Below, piece after piece: positions 16,852 through 60,603 of a stretch of DNA of 64,000 nt. A program made the position numbers and the translations under genes. Origin of the DNA: Verrucomicrobiia bacterium (GTDB taxonomy: Bacteria > Verrucomicrobiota > Verrucomicrobiia > JAWXBN01); assembly GCA_033764445.1 (NCBI GenBank), contig JANRIZ010000008.1, positions 13,634 to 77,633 of the forward strand, in the 5' to 3' direction. The notes below the pieces were generated by a model. The model was not told where the DNA came from, made no database searches, and was given only the letters and a program-made list of their open reading frames with translations. How positions within the stretch are numbered: position 1 is the stretch's first letter; the number at the start of each line of letters is the position of its first letter.

Positions 16852-17085
16852 CATATCGCATTGAATTCCCCCCAAAAACAGGGGTATAACGCATCGAAAT
16901 CCCCCTAGTGATATATTTTTATTGCCATATCGCACTGTATTCCCCCTATCAAAACGGCATAACGCATCGAAATCCCCCCAAACAGTGGGTATAACGCATT
17001 GAATTCCCCCTATCAAAACGGCATAACGCATCGAAATCCCCCCAGTTTCCCATCTGGAAAAGTCATATCGCATCGAATTCCCCCT
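16852..17085. repeat. iteron array: seven ~22-bp direct repeats (YATAWCGCAYYGWAWTCCCCCY) at 32/42-bp spacing; candidate plasmid oriV
   Basis: Copies start at approximately 16852, 16885, 16926, 16957, 16990, 17022 and 17064; the array abuts the rep stop codon at 17087. Confidence 0.75.
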
Positions 17086-50620: not shown

Positions 50621-50709
50621 ATAAAACATCAAGGGCACTGTAATTATTAATTGTAACAAAATGATTTCCATTGCGTGACAATTACGCTTCATCAATTTCA
50701 CCCCTGATC

Positions 50710-50861
50710 GCCGCATTTTGGCCGCCCCGATCAATCCGGGGTAAACTTCAAGGCTCAAAACACGCAAAAGGCGGATTCTTTCTGAACGGCCCGAGGAGCG
50801 CACGCGCCCTTGCGTGCATCAGGAGGCGCCCCCGCCTCCGCGCTGGGAGGCCCAACGGGCC
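50710..50861 (+). repeat. ~155-bp repeated extragenic element, copy A
   Basis: ~90% identical to 58517..58669; contains the ccccgatcaatccgggg and gcacgc...gcgtgc hairpins and a terminal cccaacgggccg. Confidence 0.8.
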
Positions 50862-50994
50862 GATGTATGTGAAGCCTGGGGCAACGCCACAGGAAAATGG
50901 GATTTTATGAAAAAGCCGTGTAAGGGCGTTGCAATCAATGCAATTTCATCTCAATACAACTTGTCCTGGGGATCATAATGTGTTCAATGAGGGC

Positions 50995-55766: not shown

Positions 55767-55790
55767 TACCCCGGATTGATCGGGGCGGCC
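55767..55790 (-). repeat. short inverted-orientation fragment of the repeated extragenic element (copy C)
   Basis: taccccggattgatcggggcggcc is the reverse complement of the element core in copies A and B. Confidence 0.6.
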
Positions 55791-55878
55791 ATCATCTGCG
55801 GGTTTCCCCACCGGTAATGTCTCTGATTCTCCGTGCATTTCTCCCCTTCTGAGATAAAATGCATCCGCTTCACCATAG

Positions 55879-58476
55879 ATGAATATCAAACAGAAATCGG
55901 TCCTGATCATGCTCTCCATCTGGGGGCTGTTGGGGATTCTGCTGCTGGTTTTTGTCTTCGGCTATCTGCTGCCGGCCTTTGAAAAACTTGAGCTGGATAA
56001 TGCCAGCAAAACCACCCTCCGCCTGCGTGCCTCGGTTCTGGAGGCGCAGGAAAAATTCGCCCTGGAAATGGTCGAATGGGCCGGACGCAACAACCTCCCC
56101 GATCCTCCCGGCAGGCAAAGGGGGCCCGAATCCTTGTCCCCCCCGGTCACCCCCCTCTTCGCGGTGGCCTCTCTCGGCCAGGACGGGAAAATCCTGTCGC
56201 TGCTGCCGGTTCCCGGATCAAATGCCAAGGCCGGGACCGAGCTCGATTCCTATCTCAAAAAAAATGCCGCAGGACTTGCAAAACGGCAGGGTTCCAATCC
56301 TTTGAACGGTCTTTTGAAAATCCAGAACAAACCTCTGCTGGCCACTTTTCTGCCTCTGCAAACGGGAACCGATCCGAAATCCCCCGCAAAATTTCTCCTC
56401 GCCCTCAGGGAGGTGGACGCCAGCACCCTGCAACAATGGGAGGACCGTGTCCAGTCTCCGATCCGTCTCATGCACGCGGGTCTTTTCAGCGCTCTGCCCC
56501 CGGGCCGGGGCGGGCGGAACAATCCCTCCTCCCCCGAAATGAATATCCTGGTCAAGGATGGTTCCTTCATTGAGGGGATGATCAGCATTCCGGACCCCTT
56601 TGGTGACCCTGTGTTTACGGGGTCGGTCACGATGGCACGGGATTTCCGGATGAAAATGATCGAAATCATTGTCTTCTTCCTGATCAACCTCGGGCTGACC
56701 GGGGCGGGGCTGTGGATTCTGGGCCATCTGCTTCTGAATTATTTTGTGATCGAACGCGTTCAAAGGCTCCGTGCGGCGGTCTCCTCCATCAATGCCCCGG
56801 CCATCCAATCCCACGCCCCGCTCCCGGAATTGCCTGGGGACGAAATCGGTCAGTTGGGCGCCCAAATCAACCGGCTGCTGGGCGACCTCCAAAAGGCGGA
56901 TGAGGAAATCCGTCTCAACCGCGAACAATTGCTCGAACTGGCGGCCCTGGTCGAGGAATCCTCCATCGCCATTCTCATCTGTGGCGCCGACCGCCATATC
57001 CAATACGCCAACCGCGAGGCGGAAATCCTCTTTTCGCAGACGGGCAGCAGTCCCCTGCGTTGTACGCTCGATTCCCTCCACCTCAATCCGGATCAGGGTC
57101 AGCCCCCGCTCGAAGCGGTCTGGCAGGAGGCCATCGACGAGGGTTTCTGGTCGGGGCACCTGATCGTTCAGAATCGGGAGGCCCATCTGTGCAATCTCAA
57201 GACAAGTATCTGCGCCATTTCCGGAACATCCGGGGGACGGGACCGCTACGCGCTCTTCTGTCTGGATGTCACCAATGAAATCCGTCTGCAAAACCAGCTC
57301 CGCCAGTCGCAAAAAATGGAGGCGGTGGGCAAACTCGCGGGGGGCATCGCCCACGACTACAACAATCTTCTGTTCATCATCCGTGGACATGCCCAAATGG
57401 CCCTCGAGGCCTCCACCCCGGGCAGTCCTTCGGCCTCCTATCTGCTGAATATTCTGGAGGCCTCCGACAAGGCGGGGGCGATCACCCAGCAGCTCCTGTC
57501 CTTCAGCCGCAAAACCCCGGCCTCCCGCCATGTCCTGGATATCGCCGCCGCCGCCGCCAATCTCTCCAATATGGTCTCCCGCATCGCAGGGCCCGGCGTC
57601 AGAATCCAGTTTCTTCCGCCACCCTCCGTCCTGGCGGTCCGGGCGGACCGGGTCCAGATCGACCAGTTGCTCATGAATCTCCTGCTCAATGCCCGCGATG
57701 CGATCGGTGACCATGAGGGTCTCATCCGGGTCGGGGTCTCCTCCCGCTCGATTGATGAAATGCCGCCCGATCCGGAAAAACCCTACTCCTCCCCCCGCTA
57801 CGTCCTCCTCTCGGTCAACGACGACGGCTGTGGCATGGATCAGAACCAGATCGAACATCTTTTCGAGCCCTTCTACACAACAAAGGCCAAGGGCAAGGGG
57901 ACGGGGCTGGGCCTGGCCACGGTCTATGGCATTGTGACCAATCACGAGGGTCTGATCCGGGTCAGCAGCAAACCGGGTCAGGGCTCGACCTTTGAGGTTT
58001 TTCTCCCCCAATCCGATGATCCGGTCGAACCGGTCGAACCGCCCCCCCCGGTCCTCAGGGACAAGATCCCCGGCACCCTGCTGCTCTTTGAGGATGAAAC
58101 CATGAGCCGGATCCTGCTGCAGGGCTTTTTTGAACAGTCCGGCTTGAAGGTCTTCGCCGCAGGCAGCGGGGAGGAGGGGATCGATCTCTTCAACGGACAT
58201 CGTGAGGAAATCGATCTGGTCCTCATGGACGTGATTCTTCCGGGGAAAAACGGTTTTGAAACGGCGGAGATACTCCTGCAATCCCGTCCGACGCTGCCGC
58301 TGATTTTTATGAGTGGTCATACGGGGGAGAACTTTCCCCCGGCCTTCCGCCGTTTTACGCTGGTCAAGAAGCCCTTCGACCTGAACTTCCTGCTGGAAAA
58401 AATCCGGGGTCTCCTGACCGAACTCCGCGCCCAGACCCAGACCATCGAGCAAGGCCCAACGGGCTGCCACAGGTGA
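55879..58476 (+). CDS. hybrid sensor histidine kinase (two TM helices, periplasmic domain, HAMP, PAS, HisKA, HATPase and C-terminal REC)
   Basis: H-box GGIAHDYNNLL; G-boxes ...GTGLGLATV...; C-terminal REC DLVLMDVILPGKNG. Confidence 0.85.
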   Translation: MNIKQKSVLIMLSIWGLLGILLLVFVFGYLLPAFEKLELDNASKTTLRLRASVLEAQEKFALEMVEWAGRNNLPDPPGRQRGPESLSPPVTPLFAVASLGQDGKILSLLPVPGSNAKAGTELDSYLKKNAAGLAKRQGSNPLNGLLKIQNKPLLATFLPLQTGTDPKSPAKFLLALREVDASTLQQWEDRVQSPIRLMHAGLFSALPPGRGGRNNPSSPEMNILVKDGSFIEGMISIPDPFGDPVFTGSVTMARDFRMKMIEIIVFFLINLGLTGAGLWILGHLLLNYFVIERVQRLRAAVSSINAPAIQSHAPLPELPGDEIGQLGAQINRLLGDLQKADEEIRLNREQLLELAALVEESSIAILICGADRHIQYANREAEILFSQTGSSPLRCTLDSLHLNPDQGQPPLEAVWQEAIDEGFWSGHLIVQNREAHLCNLKTSICAISGTSGGRDRYALFCLDVTNEIRLQNQLRQSQKMEAVGKLAGGIAHDYNNLLFIIRGHAQMALEASTPGSPSASYLLNILEASDKAGAITQQLLSFSRKTPASRHVLDIAAAAANLSNMVSRIAGPGVRIQFLPPPSVLAVRADRVQIDQLLMNLLLNARDAIGDHEGLIRVGVSSRSIDEMPPDPEKPYSSPRYVLLSVNDDGCGMDQNQIEHLFEPFYTTKAKGKGTGLGLATVYGIVTNHEGLIRVSSKPGQGSTFEVFLPQSDDPVEPVEPPPPVLRDKIPGTLLLFEDETMSRILLQGFFEQSGLKVFAAGSGEEGIDLFNGHREEIDLVLMDVILPGKNGFETAEILLQSRPTLPLIFMSGHTGENFPPAFRRFTLVKKPFDLNFLLEKIRGLLTELRAQTQTIEQGPTGCHR

Positions 58477-58516
58477 ATCCGGTGGCAGCACCCCCCTCAC
58501 GAAACCCAACGGGCCG

Positions 58517-58669
58517 CCGCATTCTGGCCGCCCCGATCAATCCAGGGTAAACTTCAAGGCGCAAAACACACAAAAGGGGGATTTTTTCAGAACTGACCGG
58601 GGAGCGCACGCGCCCCCGCGTGCATCAGGAGGCGCCCCCGCCTCCGCTCTGGGCGGCCCAACGGGCCGC
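58517..58669 (+). repeat. ~155-bp repeated extragenic element, copy B
   Basis: ~90% identical to 50710..50861, same orientation; an extra cccaacgggc motif lies at 58456 and 58505. Confidence 0.8.
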
Positions 58670-58769: not shown

Positions 58770-59387
58770 CTAATTCATCTGTTTCAAGGCCAGACGGACG
58801 AGGTCCTCGACCCCGGCCTTCGCATTTTTCGGATCGGATATCAGGGTGCGCACACATTGGTGGGATTCCAAGGGTTTGTACCCAAGCGCCCCCAAAGCCA
58901 GAACGGCGTCATTGAGGCGCGCCTCGCCCAAATCCACGGCAGCGGTTCCGGAGGACACGGGAGAAGAAGCCCCCGTGGGGAGATCACCCAACTTGTCCCG
59001 GAGCTCAACCACGATCCGTTCGGCGGTCTTCTTGCCCACCCCGGGTATGGCCGAAAGCAGCTTCACATCTCCTGCAGAAACAGCCTGTGCGAATGTCCCC
59101 GCATTCATCCCGCTCAAAACAGCCATGGCGGTCTTGGGTCCAATGCCGGAGACCTTTTCAATGAGCATCCGGAACAGCGACCGCTCCTGTAATGTCGCAA
59201 ATCCAAAAAGCAGATGGGCATCCTCCCGGATGACCAGCTCCGTATGCAAAAAAACCTCGGTCTCGGGCGCGGGCAATTTGCCGAAGGAAGACAATGGAAT
59301 GGCGACCTGATAGCCCACACCCCCCACATCCACCACCGCATGGGTCGGATGGGCCTCCACCAGTTTGCCGCGAAGAAAGGTAATCAC
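58770..59387 (-). CDS. ruvA: Holliday junction DNA helicase RuvA
   Basis: Trimmed to the GTG at 59387 (VITFLRGKLVEAHPTHAVVDVGGVGYQV..., canonical RuvA N-terminus); ~206 aa. Confidence 0.85.
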   Translation of the reverse strand: MITFLRGKLVEAHPTHAVVDVGGVGYQVAIPLSSFGKLPAPETEVFLHTELVIREDAHLLFGFATLQERSLFRMLIEKVSGIGPKTAMAVLSGMNAGTFAQAVSAGDVKLLSAIPGVGKKTAERIVVELRDKLGDLPTGASSPVSSGTAAVDLGEARLNDAVLALGALGYKPLESHQCVRTLISDPKNAKAGVEDLVRLALKQMN

Positions 59388-59606
59388 GGAGGGAAGTGAA
59401 CAGTCAACAGTCAACAGTGAACAGCCTAAAATGCATTTGCCGGTCCGTTGGGCGTTGAGCGTGGGGAAACCGGTTGCCGGTTCTCGGTGTCTCAAAAATG
59501 AATCCGTGTGATCCGTGATATCCGCGGTTGAAAAATCCGCCCTGCTCTGCGACATCTGCGGAAATTTAAACTGTTCACTGTCGACTGTTCACTGTTCACT
59601 TCTTCC

Positions 59607-60104
59607 ATGGTCATCCTTGGCATCGACCCCTCTCTGCGCAGCACGGGTTTCGGCATCATTACCGGACAGGGCCAAAAGTGGTCCTGCCCGGCCTATGGCG
59701 TCATCAAAAATCCCGCCGCCCTCCGGCTCTCGGCCTGCCTGGCACGGATATCCGAAGCGATTGAAAGGGTGATTATCGAATTCAAACCGAATGTATTGGC
59801 GACCGAGGGGATTTTTTTTCTTCAAAACCAAAAAATCGCCATCACTCTCGGCCATGCCCGGGGAGCTGCCATTGCCGTCGCCGCCCGAACAGGGATGCCC
59901 ATATTTGAATATGCCCCGCGCCGGATCAAACAATCGGTGGTCGGTTTTGGCGGCGCGGGAAAAAACCAGGTGGCGGCCATGATCCGCCCTGTGCTGGGCC
60001 TGAAGGAACTCCCGCCACCCGACGCCGCCGACGCCCTGGCCATCGCCCTGACCCATGCCAATCAAATCCTGGGGATCCAAACCGGGAAATCCGCGGAAAT
60101 TTAG
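59607..60104 (+). CDS. ruvC: crossover junction endodeoxyribonuclease RuvC
   Basis: MVILGIDPSLRSTGFGII... with the RuvC catalytic Asp/Glu pattern; 165 aa. Confidence 0.9.
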   Translation: MVILGIDPSLRSTGFGIITGQGQKWSCPAYGVIKNPAALRLSACLARISEAIERVIIEFKPNVLATEGIFFLQNQKIAITLGHARGAAIAVAARTGMPIFEYAPRRIKQSVVGFGGAGKNQVAAMIRPVLGLKELPPPDAADALAIALTHANQILGIQTGKSAEI

Positions 60105-60141
60105 ACTGTTCACCGCCGACTCTTCCGGGTTCACTTCCCCC

Positions 60142-60603
60142 ATGCTTACCGCCAACGAGGAAATCATCCCCGATGCCAAGGGTCTTCGTTTTGCCATCAT
60201 CGCCAGTCTCTACAACCGACCCTACACGGATGGGCTCCTGTTCGCCGCGGAGGAGGTCTTTGTCAAAGCCCACGCACGCCACGTCAAAATCGTCCGTGTC
60301 CCGGGCAGTTTTGAAATCCCGGTGGCGGCGGCAAAATGCGCCCGGAGCGGAAAATTCGACGCCGTGATCAATCTGGGGGTCATCTTTGTGGGACAGACCC
60401 TGCACGCCGACCATATCGGTCTGGGCATTACCCTGGGTCTGACCCATCTTGCGGTGGAAACGGGCATCCCGCAGATTCACGAGGTGCTGATCGTCAAAAC
60501 CCCGGCCGAGGCCCGGAAACGCTGTCTGAATCCCAAATACAACAAGGGCACGGAGGCGGCCCTGGCGGCGGTGCAGATCGCCGGGACCCTGAAAAAAATC
60601 TAG
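60142..60603 (+). CDS. ribH: 6,7-dimethyl-8-ribityllumazine synthase
   Basis: Trimmed to MLTANEE...; ...RFAIIASLYNRPYTDGLL...VPGSFEIP... lumazine synthase signature. Confidence 0.85.
   Translation: MLTANEEIIPDAKGLRFAIIASLYNRPYTDGLLFAAEEVFVKAHARHVKIVRVPGSFEIPVAAAKCARSGKFDAVINLGVIFVGQTLHADHIGLGITLGLTHLAVETGIPQIHEVLIVKTPAEARKRCLNPKYNKGTEAALAAVQIAGTLKKI

What the first reader, a model, noticed from the sequence alone, without database searches (positions are those of the whole stretch)
59388..59430. Conserved ~50-bp cassette with TGTTCAC heptamer repeats 7-8 nt upstream of the ruvA start codon
On the ruvA coding strand the sequence is ttttaggcTGTTCACTGTTGACTGTTGACTGTTCACttccctccGTG. It is nearly identical in layout to the sites upstream of ruvC and ribH: four TGTYSAC heptamers followed by a pyrimidine tract at constant distance from the start. 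Shared cis-elements on two Holliday-junction resolution genes suggest a common repressor operator (the GTTC/GAAC half-sites recall LexA-type boxes) or a portable promoter/5'UTR cassette.
Basis: seen in the sequence. Interest (0 to 1): 0.6.

Follow-up and report, generated by a model that had tools for sequence, protein, structure and literature searches.

The report
Duplicated heptamer-repeat leader before ruvA, ruvC, ribH
Three neighbouring genes in an uncultured Verrucomicrobiae bacterium start right after near-identical ~55-nt sequences containing four 7-base repeats; these are local copies of one junction (the tail of ruvC plus the spacer before ribH), not a shared DNA-damage operator, so the finding is real but fairly ordinary.

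Summary
Four tandem TGTYSAC heptamers plus a pyrimidine tract sit 8 nt before the ruvA GTG (array 59396-59423, minus strand) and 7 nt before the ruvC ATG (59572-59599). A degenerate copy sits 7 nt before the ribH ATG (60107-60134). This is far above chance.

The three copies are paralogues. The "AT box" 5' of the heptamers is the last codons plus stop of ruvC (…SAEI*, conserved in relatives). A pseudo-copy (…TSAEI*) lies upstream of ruvC itself. So the ruvC-tail/ribH-leader junction was duplicated directly in front of ruvC and in inverted orientation in front of ruvA.

The cassette is lineage-specific:
- The nearest relatives (60-66% identity) have different gene neighbours and no arrays.
- 79 kb of host sequence holds only these three clustered copies.
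- A metagenome scan for the cassette frame gave only chance-like hits.

A LexA or SOS operator is not supported. There is no dyad or N7 direct-repeat geometry, ribH is not a repair gene, and the site is not conserved in orthologues.

The tract resembles cyanobacterial STRR heptanucleotide repeats, and similar arrays occur in many phyla. The most likely role is a shared, unstructured, pyrimidine-rich 5' leader without a Shine-Dalgarno site. That role is inferred, not shown.

The parts
58770..59387 (-). ruvA coding sequence (205 aa, GTG start at 59387-59385)
   Evidence: Pfam RuvA_N, HHH_5 and RuvA_C. The exact 205-aa protein is NCBI MDX2225653.1. The 261-aa ORF from ATG 59555 that the Logan gene caller used runs through the cassette and is not in the protein collection.
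59388..59395 (-). Pyrimidine tract TTCCCTCC between the array and the ruvA start; no Shine-Dalgarno
59396..59423 (-). ruvA-proximal heptamer array: TGTTCAC TGTTGAC TGTTGAC TGTTCAC
   Evidence: Inverted repeat I1 with the ruvC array: 38 nt, 89% complementary.
59424..59444 (-). Remnant of the ruvC 3' end upstream of the ruvA array (ACCGGCAAAT--GC---ATTTTAGGC, compared with ACCGGGAAATCCGCGGAAATTTAGAC)
   Evidence: Local alignment of 70 nt with 5 nt of gaps. Inverted repeat I2 with the ribH copy: 40 nt, 78%. The gapped part is suggestive only.
59445..59550 (.). Central part of the ruvA-ruvC spacer. No homology to the cassette. Contains the palindrome AACCGGTTGCCGGTT (59468-59482) and a 9-nt ATCCGTG-type tandem (59502-59524).
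   Evidence: The palindrome is not above chance (16% of shuffles), there are no coding remnants, and the fold z-score is +0.4.
59551..59571 (+). Pseudo-copy of the ruvC 3' end (GACATCTGCGGAAATTTAAAC, reading ..TSAEI*) forming the 'AT box' of the ruvC-proximal cassette
   Evidence: Direct repeat D1: 59 nt, 81% identity, no gaps, spacing 535 nt.
59572..59599 (+). ruvC-proximal heptamer array: TGTTCAC TGTCGAC TGTTCAC TGTTCAC
59600..59606 (+). Pyrimidine tract TTCTTCC before the ruvC ATG
59607..60104 (+). ruvC coding sequence (165 aa). Its last codons ACC GGG AAA TCC GCG GAA ATT TAG (60081-60104) are the source of the cassette's AT box.
   Evidence: Pfam RuvC, 7e-42. The C-terminal E-I-stop is conserved in relatives at protein level and DNA level.
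60105..60141 (+). In-situ ruvC-ribH spacer: AC + degenerate array TGTTCAC CGCCGAC TCTTCCG GGTTCAC (60107-60134) + TTCCCCC (60135-60141)
60142..60603 (+). ribH (6,7-dimethyl-8-ribityllumazine synthase, 153 aa)
   Evidence: Pfam DMRL_synthase, 2.6e-32. Same coordinates in the Logan gene call.
59404..59432 (+). Sigma-70-like match on the strand opposite the ruvA cassette (TCAACA-17-TAAAAT, 9/12), pointing toward ruvC
   Evidence: Within chance expectation.
59563..59591 (-). Mirror-image sigma-70-like match opposite the ruvC cassette (TGAACA-17-TAAATT, 8/12), pointing toward ruvA
   Evidence: Within chance expectation.

Best explanation
The cassette is a lineage-specific segmental duplication, not an independently conserved operator.

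Origin. The original unit is the junction between ruvC and ribH: the last ~20-25 nt of ruvC (…T G K S A E I stop), then a 37-nt spacer made of an STRR-like heptanucleotide tract (ACTGT core plus two variable bases, four units) and a C/T tract, then the next gene's start codon. This unit was copied directly in front of ruvC. The direct repeat spacing of 535 nt equals the distance from the ruvC ATG to the ribH ATG, which is consistent with a tandem duplication of ruvC plus spacer followed by loss of the upstream copy. It was also copied in inverted orientation in front of ruvA.

Consequence. The tract ends 7-8 nt before each start codon, so it necessarily forms the ribosome-landing region of all three mRNAs wherever transcription starts.

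Inferred mechanism. It acts as a shared, unstructured, pyrimidine-rich leader without a Shine-Dalgarno site. Such a leader would support SD-independent initiation, presumably dependent on ribosomal protein S1, and would give ruvA, ruvC and ribH the same translation-initiation context.

What is shown: the paralogy, the ruvC-tail origin of the AT box, the position against the start codons, the absence of SD and of secondary structure, and the lineage specificity. What is inferred: the duplication route, and any sequence-specific role of the heptamers in translation.
For: - The three copies align over 51-70 nt with conserved length up to the start codon. The repeat finder independently reports D1 (59 nt, 81%, spacing 535) and I1/I2 (38-40 nt, 89% and 78%).
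- The AT box is the ruvC terminus. The window's ruvC ends …AAATCCGCGGAAATTTAG (KSAEI*). Relatives' ruvC genes end GA(A/G)ATTT(A/G)A, and the final Ile is at least 90% conserved. The sequence upstream of ruvC's own array is GACATCTGCGGAAATTTAA, which reads TSAEI*.
- Relatives lack both the synteny and the cassette.
- 79 kb of host sequence holds only the three clustered copies.
- The metagenome frame scan returned 6 chance-like hits.
- Starts are validated by Pfam N-terminal alignment and the NCBI annotation.
- The leaders have no SD, are 69-74% pyrimidine (background 50±10%; only 1% of 35-mers reach 74%), and other host genes have similar leaders. Only 4 of 17 host-like genes have an SD.
- The 35-nt tracts fold at only -1.6 to -3.3 kcal/mol.
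- There are weak signs of constraint or homogenisation. There are 0 changes in 40 TGT..AC core positions in the ruvA and ruvC copies, against 6 of 20 in the ribH copy (binomial p=0.03). All 3 differences between the ruvA and ruvC arrays fall on the two variable positions (p=0.02).
- In other phyla, 7 Pfam-validated genes start 9-29 nt after a sense-oriented array.
Against: - There are no transcript data, so the 5' ends are unknown.
- The leaders are not less structured than shuffled sequence (z +0.3 to +0.7), so 'unstructured' is a property, not evidence of selection.
- The two constraint tests are small-sample (p about 0.02-0.03) and could reflect gene conversion between the inverted copies or recent duplication.
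- The ribH copy has lost its middle heptamers, yet ribH is presumably still expressed, so perfect heptamers are not required for initiation.
- No close relative exists to measure conservation.
- The cross-phylum sense-orientation trend is not significant (7 vs 3; 4 vs 3).
Confidence: 0.55

Rival explanations
1. Neutral scar. The cassette is simply what a local rearrangement left behind: a duplicated junction carrying a microsatellite. The heptamer sequence has no sequence-specific function, and any spacer of similar composition would do.
For: - The paralogy fully explains the similarity.
- The ribH copy has decayed in its middle units without loss of the gene.
- Divergence between the ribH and ruvC copies is roughly uniform at about 20% across the tail, array and C/T tract.
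- The neighbourhood is repeat-rich, suggesting frequent rearrangement.
- No structure, Rfam family or significant promoter signal was found.
Against: - The core positions of 8 of 8 heptamers in the ruvA and ruvC copies are intact, while the ribH copy has lost 6 of 20 (p=0.03).
- Differences between the two good copies are confined to the two variable positions (p=0.02).
- All three copies end precisely at a start codon with no indels in the array.
Confidence: 0.2
2. DNA operator. The contiguous heptads are bound along the duplex by a repressor, which could be a LexA variant recognising direct repeats, a ribbon-helix-helix protein of the omega type, or a NarL/LuxR-type response regulator. Sitting between promoter and start codon, it would co-repress ruvA and ruvC, with ribH a decayed site.
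For: - LexA has repeatedly evolved direct-repeat recognition, for example GTTC-N7-GTTC (PMC8565304; PMC7739468).
- The heptads contain GTTC/TGTTC.
- ruvA is an SOS gene in E. coli (established knowledge).
- Contiguous heptads are a known operator format for omega of pSM19035 (recalled, not checked here).
- The heptad cores look constrained in the two Holliday-junction genes and decayed at ribH.
- A LuxR-family response regulator and a hybrid kinase lie just beyond ruvA.
Against: - The GTTC spacing is N3/N10/N17, not N7, and there is no dyad. TGTTC-N4-GAACA is not enriched (27 matches vs 30 expected) and is absent at the site.
- The site is absent upstream of ruvC and ribH orthologues.
- Similar arrays in other genomes precede unrelated genes.
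- The similarity needs no selective explanation.
- No regulator is linked to the site, and no other copy exists in 79 kb.
Confidence: 0.1
3. Crossed promoters. Read on the opposite strand, each cassette is a sigma-70 promoter, with the -35 supplied by a heptamer and the -10 by the AT box. The ruvA-proximal copy would then drive ruvC and the ruvC-proximal copy would drive ruvA, giving ~165-nt 5' UTRs that overlap in antisense.
For: - The only sigma-70-like candidates in the 219-nt spacer are TCAACA-17-TAAAAT (9/12, plus strand) and TGAACA-17-TAAATT (8/12, minus strand).
- They are mirror-symmetric, ending 174 and 175 nt from the opposite start codon.
- No sense-oriented candidate was found for any cassette.
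- The ribH copy, where an antisense promoter would fire into ruvC, has lost the -35 heptamer.
Against: - Two hits at 8/12 or better are within chance (1.2±1.2 in shuffles).
- The symmetry follows automatically from the inverted duplication.
- It does not explain why the cassettes abut the start codons.
- The promoter consensus of this lineage is unknown.
- The predicted long UTR has no unusual structure (z +0.4).
Confidence: 0.1
4. Contingency locus. The heptanucleotide tract is a slippage-prone simple-sequence repeat that tunes or switches expression by changing unit number, as in the 7-bp repeats upstream of the Haemophilus influenzae hmw adhesin genes.
For: Tandem 7-nt units lie between any possible promoter and the start codon. 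Array lengths vary widely (3-55 units) among genomes in other taxa.
Against: - There are only four units, of three sequence variants, which is poor substrate for slippage.
- Unit number is identical in all three paralogues and in three assemblies.
- The target genes are housekeeping genes.
Confidence: 0.03

Closest known systems
Cyanobacterial STRR (short tandemly repeated repetitive) heptanucleotide sequences
   Same: Both have a 7-bp unit repeated head-to-tail in intergenic and intercistronic spacers. PMC2670836 describes them as usually 7-bp repeats of unknown function, found for example between hupS and hupL, and proposed to affect transcript stability or translational coupling. TGTTGAC arrays are abundant in Microcoleus, Tychonema, Nostoc and Calothrix genomes. 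From memory, this unit is the complement of STRR3, CAACAGT. The original copy here is also intercistronic (ruvC-ribH).
   Different: The host is a Verrucomicrobiae MAG. There are only four units. The array abuts start codons. Only three clustered copies exist in 79 kb rather than a dispersed family. The copies carry a piece of the neighbouring gene, showing segmental duplication rather than independent array formation.
Duplicated or 'mobile' promoter-leader regions (homologous 5' regions in front of non-homologous genes; 'promoter propagation in prokaryotes', recalled from memory and not checked in the library)
   Same: One upstream segment is reused in front of three unrelated genes in one genome and ends at the start codon.
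   Different: This case is local (760 bp), with three copies only. No transposase or terminal repeats of a mobile element are present. Promoter activity is not shown, and no sense sigma-70 match was found.
LexA (SOS) boxes, including direct-repeat types (GTTC-N7-GTTC in Alphaproteobacteria; Verrucomicrobia motif recalled as TGTTC-N4-GAACA, Erill et al. 2016, paper not held)
   Same: GTTC/TGTTC words are present, and ruvA belongs to the E. coli SOS regulon.
   Different: The geometry is wrong (N3/N10/N17, no dyad). ribH is included. The site is not conserved in orthologues. The palindrome is not enriched.
Omega (ribbon-helix-helix) repressor operators of plasmid pSM19035: contiguous WATCACW heptads (recalled)
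   Same: Contiguous 7-bp units with a TCAC core. This is the best-known case of a protein reading DNA with heptad periodicity.
   Different: The heptad matches only 5 of 7 positions in the best register. No RHH gene was identified nearby. The array lies against the start codon rather than over a promoter.
7-bp simple-sequence repeats upstream of Haemophilus influenzae hmw1A/hmw2A (recalled)
   Same: A heptanucleotide tandem tract lies in the 5' region between promoter and start codon.
   Different: Here the units are imperfect, there are only four, no copy-number polymorphism is seen, and the genes are housekeeping genes.

Membership tests
LexA/SOS operator | Half-sites arranged as the clade's LexA motif (a dyad such as TGTTC-N4-GAACA or GAAC-N4-GTTC, or the direct repeat GTTC-N7-GTTC) | tested here: not met
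   The arrays give GTTC-N3/N10/N17-GTTC only, with no GAACA partner on the same strand. TGTTC-N4-GAACA with up to 2 mismatches gave 27 hits vs 30 expected, none at the cassette.
LexA/SOS operator | Same motif upstream of core SOS genes (lexA, recA, uvrA, translesion polymerases) in the same genome | not testable with these tools
   No such gene lies in the 79 kb of host sequence reachable. The rest of the MAG could not be fetched.
LexA/SOS operator | Site conserved upstream of orthologous genes in related species | tested here: not met
   ruvC loci of 4 relatives and ribH loci of 2 relatives have no heptamer array anywhere in about 115 kb. These relatives are distant (60-66% identity).
LexA/SOS operator | Target genes belong to DNA repair or damage tolerance | tested here: not met
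   One of the three targets is ribH, lumazine synthase. Arrays elsewhere precede an SDR, CbiM, DapB, an adenosine kinase, a cyclase, GH57 and AhpD-like genes.
STRR-type heptanucleotide tandem repeat | 7-bp unit repeated head-to-tail at least 3 times | tested here: met
   Four units at each of the ruvA and ruvC sites.
STRR-type heptanucleotide tandem repeat | Non-coding, intergenic or intercistronic location | tested here: met
   The arrays lie between validated gene ends and starts.
STRR-type heptanucleotide tandem repeat | Dispersed, many copies per genome | tested here: inconclusive
   Only three clustered copies in 79 kb. The whole genome was not available.
STRR-type heptanucleotide tandem repeat | Host is a (filamentous) cyanobacterium | tested here: not met
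   The host is annotated as a Verrucomicrobiae MAG. Similar arrays do occur in many other phyla.
Duplicated promoter/leader cassette | Homologous upstream segment in front of non-homologous genes in one genome | tested here: met
Duplicated promoter/leader cassette | Contains an active promoter | tested here: inconclusive
   No sense sigma-70-like match was found, and the antisense matches are within chance. A real test needs transcript mapping.
Simple-sequence contingency locus | Repeat-number polymorphism between cells or strains | tested here: not met
   Three assemblies are identical over the region. They come from a single study, so the test is weak.
Omega-type heptad operator | Cognate ribbon-helix-helix repressor encoded nearby | not tested
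   Small ORFs around the locus were not screened. The larger neighbours are a response regulator, a hybrid kinase, a rhodanese and a TPR protein.

The most novel reading that the evidence does not exclude
The ACTGT-core heptad tract may be a functional, sequence-specific cis-element rather than a passive microsatellite. It would be read with 7-nt periodicity by a conserved factor, on RNA (a ribosome-associated or cold-shock-type single-strand binder) or on DNA. It would be used in 5' leaders and intercistronic spacers across many bacterial phyla, with cyanobacterial STRR3 as the only described example. In this Verrucomicrobiae lineage it would have been co-opted by duplication to couple expression of the two Holliday-junction genes ruvA and ruvC. 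The evidence does not exclude this. Cores are intact in the ruvA and ruvC copies but decayed at ribH (p about 0.03). Arrays of the same unit family occur in at least 8 phyla. Seven Pfam-validated genes start 9-29 nt after a sense-oriented array, against three on the antisense side.
Probability: 0.12. Interest if true: 0.65.

Novelty: new member of a known kind. Interest (0 to 1): 0.3.

Why it matters
For this locus, the practical lesson is cautionary. A striking 'shared cis-element' on two functionally related genes turns out to be local paralogy, down to a copied stop codon, so it should not be used as evidence for an SOS regulon or seeded into motif discovery as independent sites.

It is also a clean small example of how rearrangement can hand one gene's translation-initiation region to its new neighbours. 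In the nearest relatives these genes sit in different neighbourhoods with unrelated upstream sequence.

The wider point is worth a systematic look. STRR-like heptanucleotide arrays of the TGTYSAC family are not confined to cyanobacteria, and they often lie directly against gene starts. Their function has been unknown for decades.

Tried and rejected
- **Genome-collection scan** for three tandem TGTYSAC units.
- **Metagenome scan** with the cassette frame TTTARRCTGTTCAC…GTTCACTTC. It gave 6 hits, all in low-GC contigs without arrays or adjacent starts, so they are chance.
- **Rfam** at gathering threshold over the window and at E≤1 over the locus: nothing. **tRNA scan**: nothing.
- **RNA folding** of leaders and of the putative long 5' UTR: no structure beyond shuffles.
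- **LexA palindrome search**: not enriched. Erill et al. 2016 on the Verrucomicrobia LexA motif is not held in the library, so that consensus remains recalled only.
- **Cross-phylum orientation bias.** A first pass suggested 11 vs 2. A symmetric but noisy ORF analysis gave 4 vs 3. Pfam validation gave 7 vs 3. I treat it as unproven.
- **L095 divergent pair.** I first read L095 as a second divergent-gene pair with inverted arrays. Reading the sequence showed two co-oriented genes with an intercistronic inverted-array hairpin, so this was rejected.
- **Relatives' ribH promoter.** I first called the relatives' ribH upstream TTGACA-17-TTTAAT a textbook promoter. The scanner rejects it because the -10 has no A at position 2, so I withdrew the claim.
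- **Decayed upstream ruvC copy.** tblastn of RuvC, RibH and RuvA against the spacer found nothing beyond SAEI.
- **Central palindrome** AACCGGTTGCCGGTT: not significant.
- **Cruciform autoregulation.** I considered a cruciform or Holliday-junction mimic bound by RuvA (38-nt inverted arms). I rejected it as unlikely because the arms are 134 nt apart and nothing supports extrusion.
- **Literature search** for the repeat strings: no bacterial paper.

Full report
**Observation.** The array occupies 59396-59423, the pyrimidine tract 59388-59395, and the GTG 59387-59385. A second array (TGTTCAC TGTCGAC TGTTCAC TGTTCAC ttcttcc ATG) lies at 59572-59599 on the plus strand, against the ruvC ATG at 59607. 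Two- and three-heptamer patterns occur 6 and 7 times, against 0.07 and 0.03 expected, and Tandem Repeats Finder reports both arrays. A position-weighted scan found a third, degenerate copy at 60107-60134 (TGTTCAC CGCCGAC TCTTCCG GGTTCAC ttccccc ATG) and nothing else in 64 kb. Pfam confirms RuvA, RuvC and lumazine synthase RibH. The GTG start is the one NCBI uses for the 205-aa RuvA (MDX2225653.1). The 261-aa ORF that a metagenome gene caller extended through the cassette is not in the protein collection. Three independent assemblies are identical across the region.

**Anatomy.** Each copy has the same order and length: an A/T-rich box (GCGGAAATTTAAAC, GCGGAAATTTAGAC or GCATTTTAGGC), 28 nt of heptamers, a 7-8-nt C/T tract, then the start codon. 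The repeat finder independently reports a 59-nt direct repeat at 81% identity (59551-59609 and 60086-60144, spacing 535 nt) and 38-40-nt inverted repeats linking the ruvA copy to the other two. The spacing of 535 nt is exactly the distance from the ruvC ATG to the ribH ATG.

**Origin.** The ribH copy's A/T box overlaps the ruvC stop codon. RuvC ends …T-G-K-S-A-E-I-stop (ACC GGG AAA TCC GCG GAA ATT TAG, 60081-60104). The terminal Glu-Ile is conserved in relatives at protein level (Ile at least 90%) and at DNA level (GA[A/G]ATTT[A/G]A in four relatives that have no heptamers). That sequence is therefore ancestral coding sequence. The segment upstream of ruvC's own array reads GACATCTGCGGAAATTTAA, which translates to …T-S-A-E-I-stop and forms part of an ungapped 59-nt alignment (48 identities) that ends at the ATG. 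The ruvA copy aligns over 70 nt with 5 nt of gaps, back to ACCGGCAAAT (compare ACCGGGAAAT, the Thr-Gly-Lys codons). The three sites are thus paralogues of one unit, the ruvC tail plus the spacer that precedes ribH. A tandem duplication of ruvC plus spacer followed by loss of the upstream copy would produce the direct repeat, and an inverted duplication would produce the ruvA copy. This route is inference. No further coding remnants are detectable in the spacer.

**Distribution.**
- The host is an uncultured Verrucomicrobiae MAG.
- Its nearest available relatives are only 60-66% identical in RuvC and RibH.
- In those relatives ruvC is divergent from grpE, ribH sits next to other genes, and about 115 kb of their sequence contains no heptamer array.
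- Using flanking assemblies I could read 79 kb of host sequence. A profile built from the three copies, and a heptamer scan, find only the three clustered copies.
- A scan of JGI metagenomes for the cassette frame gave six hits that look like chance.
- The cassette is therefore lineage-specific and, as far as can be seen, local.

**The LexA / DNA-damage idea.** LexA has evolved direct-repeat recognition more than once, for example GTTC-N7-GTTC (PMC8565304; PMC7739468). I recall a Verrucomicrobia motif TGTTC-N4-GAACA (Erill et al. 2016), but that paper is not held. Several results count against the idea:
- The arrays give GTTC spacings of N3, N10 and N17 and have no dyad partner.
- The palindrome is not enriched in the window (27 vs 30 expected) and is absent at the cassette.
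- One target is a riboflavin gene.
- Orthologues lack the site.
- Arrays elsewhere precede unrelated genes.
- The similarity that motivated the idea is fully explained by duplication.

No such gene lies in the reachable 79 kb.

**What it most likely does.** The tract ends 7-8 nt before validated start codons, so it lies in the region around each start codon that an initiating 30S subunit covers (established knowledge), wherever transcription begins. It has no Shine-Dalgarno sequence, is 69-74% pyrimidine (background 50±10%; 1% of 35-mers reach 74%), and is essentially unstructured (-1.6 to -3.3 kcal/mol over 35 nt). This fits the host. Only 4 of 17 host-like genes have an SD, and several have C/T-rich leaders (for example upstream of 54839, 45646 and 36809). 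Genes of the integrated conjugative element in the first 24 kb use an SD more often (8 of 19, several very strong). I therefore read the cassette as a shared SD-less leader and ribosome landing region. There are two weak hints that the heptad core matters. The ruvA and ruvC copies have 0 of 40 changes at TGT..AC positions against 6 of 20 in the ribH copy (p=0.03). All three differences between the ruvA and ruvC arrays fall on the two variable positions (p=0.02). Recent duplication or gene conversion between the inverted copies could give the same picture.

**Rivals.**
- *Neutral scar.* This is the main rival, and the ribH copy's decay favours it.
- *Crossed promoters.* On the opposite strand each good cassette reads as a sigma-70-like promoter: TCAACA-17-TAAAAT at 59404-59432 (+) and TGAACA-17-TAAATT at 59591-59563 (-). 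These end 174 and 175 nt from the opposite start codon and are the only candidates in the spacer. However, two hits are within chance (1.2±1.2), and the symmetry follows from the inverted duplication.
- *Contingency locus.* This is unlikely: the units are imperfect, there are four of them, and no polymorphism is seen.
- *RNA family or structure.* No Rfam family or unusual structure is present.

**Comparison with known systems.** The tract is closest to cyanobacterial STRR heptanucleotide repeats. These are described as usually 7-bp units of unknown function, found in intercistronic spacers such as hupS-hupL, with proposed roles in transcript stability or translational coupling (PMC2670836). 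The genome-collection scan shows TGTTGAC arrays in many Oscillatoriales and Nostocales. It also shows TGTTCAC, TGTCCAC and TGTCGAC arrays in Acidobacteriota, Chloroflexota, Planctomycetota, Bacteroidota, Nitrospirota, Cloacimonadota and other Verrucomicrobiota. Seven such arrays end 9-29 nt before Pfam-validated starts of unrelated genes in the sense orientation, against three in antisense. This trend did not reach significance and was not reproduced by a cruder analysis. The reuse of one upstream segment before non-homologous genes also resembles described 'propagated promoters' (recalled), but here it is local and includes a gene tail. No bacterial paper in the library mentions these repeat strings.

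**Verdict.** The feature is real and non-random. It is best described as a locally duplicated junction carrying an STRR-like heptamer tract that now serves as the common 5' leader of ruvA, ruvC and ribH. The operator/regulon reading is not supported. I file it as a new member of known kinds (STRR-like repeat; duplicated leader), with modest interest. The one open thread of wider interest is whether ACTGT-core heptad arrays form a functional cross-phylum leader or intercistronic element.

Noticed in passing
window 1-~24000; L139 11567-20720 (left of the window): The first ~24 kb is an integrative conjugative element, not host core genome. It encodes TrbI, a T4SS coupling protein, ArdC, Toprim/DUF3991, MuF_C, two Fic proteins, ParA and a tyrosine integrase next to host scpB. 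Its genes use a Shine-Dalgarno site more often than host genes (8 of 19 vs 4 of 17), several of them very strong.
   Followed up: partly
window 58515-58668 and 50709-50862; partial copy at 55767-55791: A 154-nt dispersed repeat (91% identity) with internal GC-rich inverted repeats. It lies just downstream of ruvA and upstream of a PEP-CTERM gene, and is probably a small non-autonomous repeat element.
   Followed up: partly
window 58453-58467, 58505-58521, 58655-58669; inverted at 59441-59453: A recurring GGCCCAACGGGC(C/T)GC motif (a GCCC-AAC-GGGC mini-hairpin). Two copies flank the 154-nt repeat and one lies inside the ruvA-ruvC spacer.
   Followed up: no
window 59468-59482 and 59502-59524: The centre of the ruvA-ruvC spacer holds a perfect 6-3-6 palindrome, AACCGGTTGCCGGTT, and a 9-nt ATCCGTG-type tandem (2.6 copies). 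The palindrome is not above chance (16% of shuffles), but it is a more conventional candidate operator than the heptamers.
   Followed up: partly
window 54839, 45646, 36809, 39811 (gene starts): Several host genes have strongly C/T-rich leaders without an SD (for example atcccctcccatcgatcATG and ccctctccccccactctgaATG). Only 4 of 17 host-like genes show an SD, suggesting largely SD-independent initiation in this lineage.
   Followed up: partly
L001-L120 (genome collection hits): Tandem TGTYSAC heptamer arrays (3-55 units) occur in at least 8 phyla besides cyanobacteria. Neighbouring arrays are sequence variants of the same family (TATTCAC, TGCCCAC, TGATCAC, TGTGCAC, CGTTCAC). In Acidobacteria and Chloroflexi several arrays run straight into the SD (TGTTCAC|tgaggaaccATG).
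   Followed up: partly
L095 6942-7053: In another Verrucomicrobiae MAG, a 112-nt spacer between two co-oriented phage-like genes consists of an antisense GTGAACA-type array, then aattttagag, then a sense CACTAAY array that abuts the ATG. Together they form a long imperfect intercistronic hairpin.
   Followed up: partly
L120 3160-3180, 4924-4951, 7581-7657: An Opitutales chromosome carries three arrays (3, 4 and 11 units) within 8 kb, all on one strand. One lies between convergent gene ends, so arrays are not confined to 5' leaders.
   Followed up: no
L046 and L116: In two unrelated genomes the array lies immediately upstream (antisense) of a 23S rRNA-intervening-sequence / bAvd-like four-helix-bundle gene (PF05635).
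   Followed up: no
L136 5940-6000; L138 3520-3577: ribH in two relatives is preceded by a conserved TTGACA-17-TTTAAT pair ending 9-13 nt before the ATG. The consensus scanner does not accept it as a promoter because the -10 has no A at position 2. If real, it would imply near-leaderless ribH mRNAs in those relatives.
   Followed up: partly
window 58770-59555 (minus strand): An automatic gene call in the Logan assemblies extends RuvA by 56 codons through the spacer and the cassette (261 aa). NCBI's 205-aa call from the GTG fits the RuvA_N profile.
   Followed up: yes
window 16951-17044: A 32-nt tandem repeat (2.9 copies, 70% matches) inside the conjugative element.
   Followed up: no
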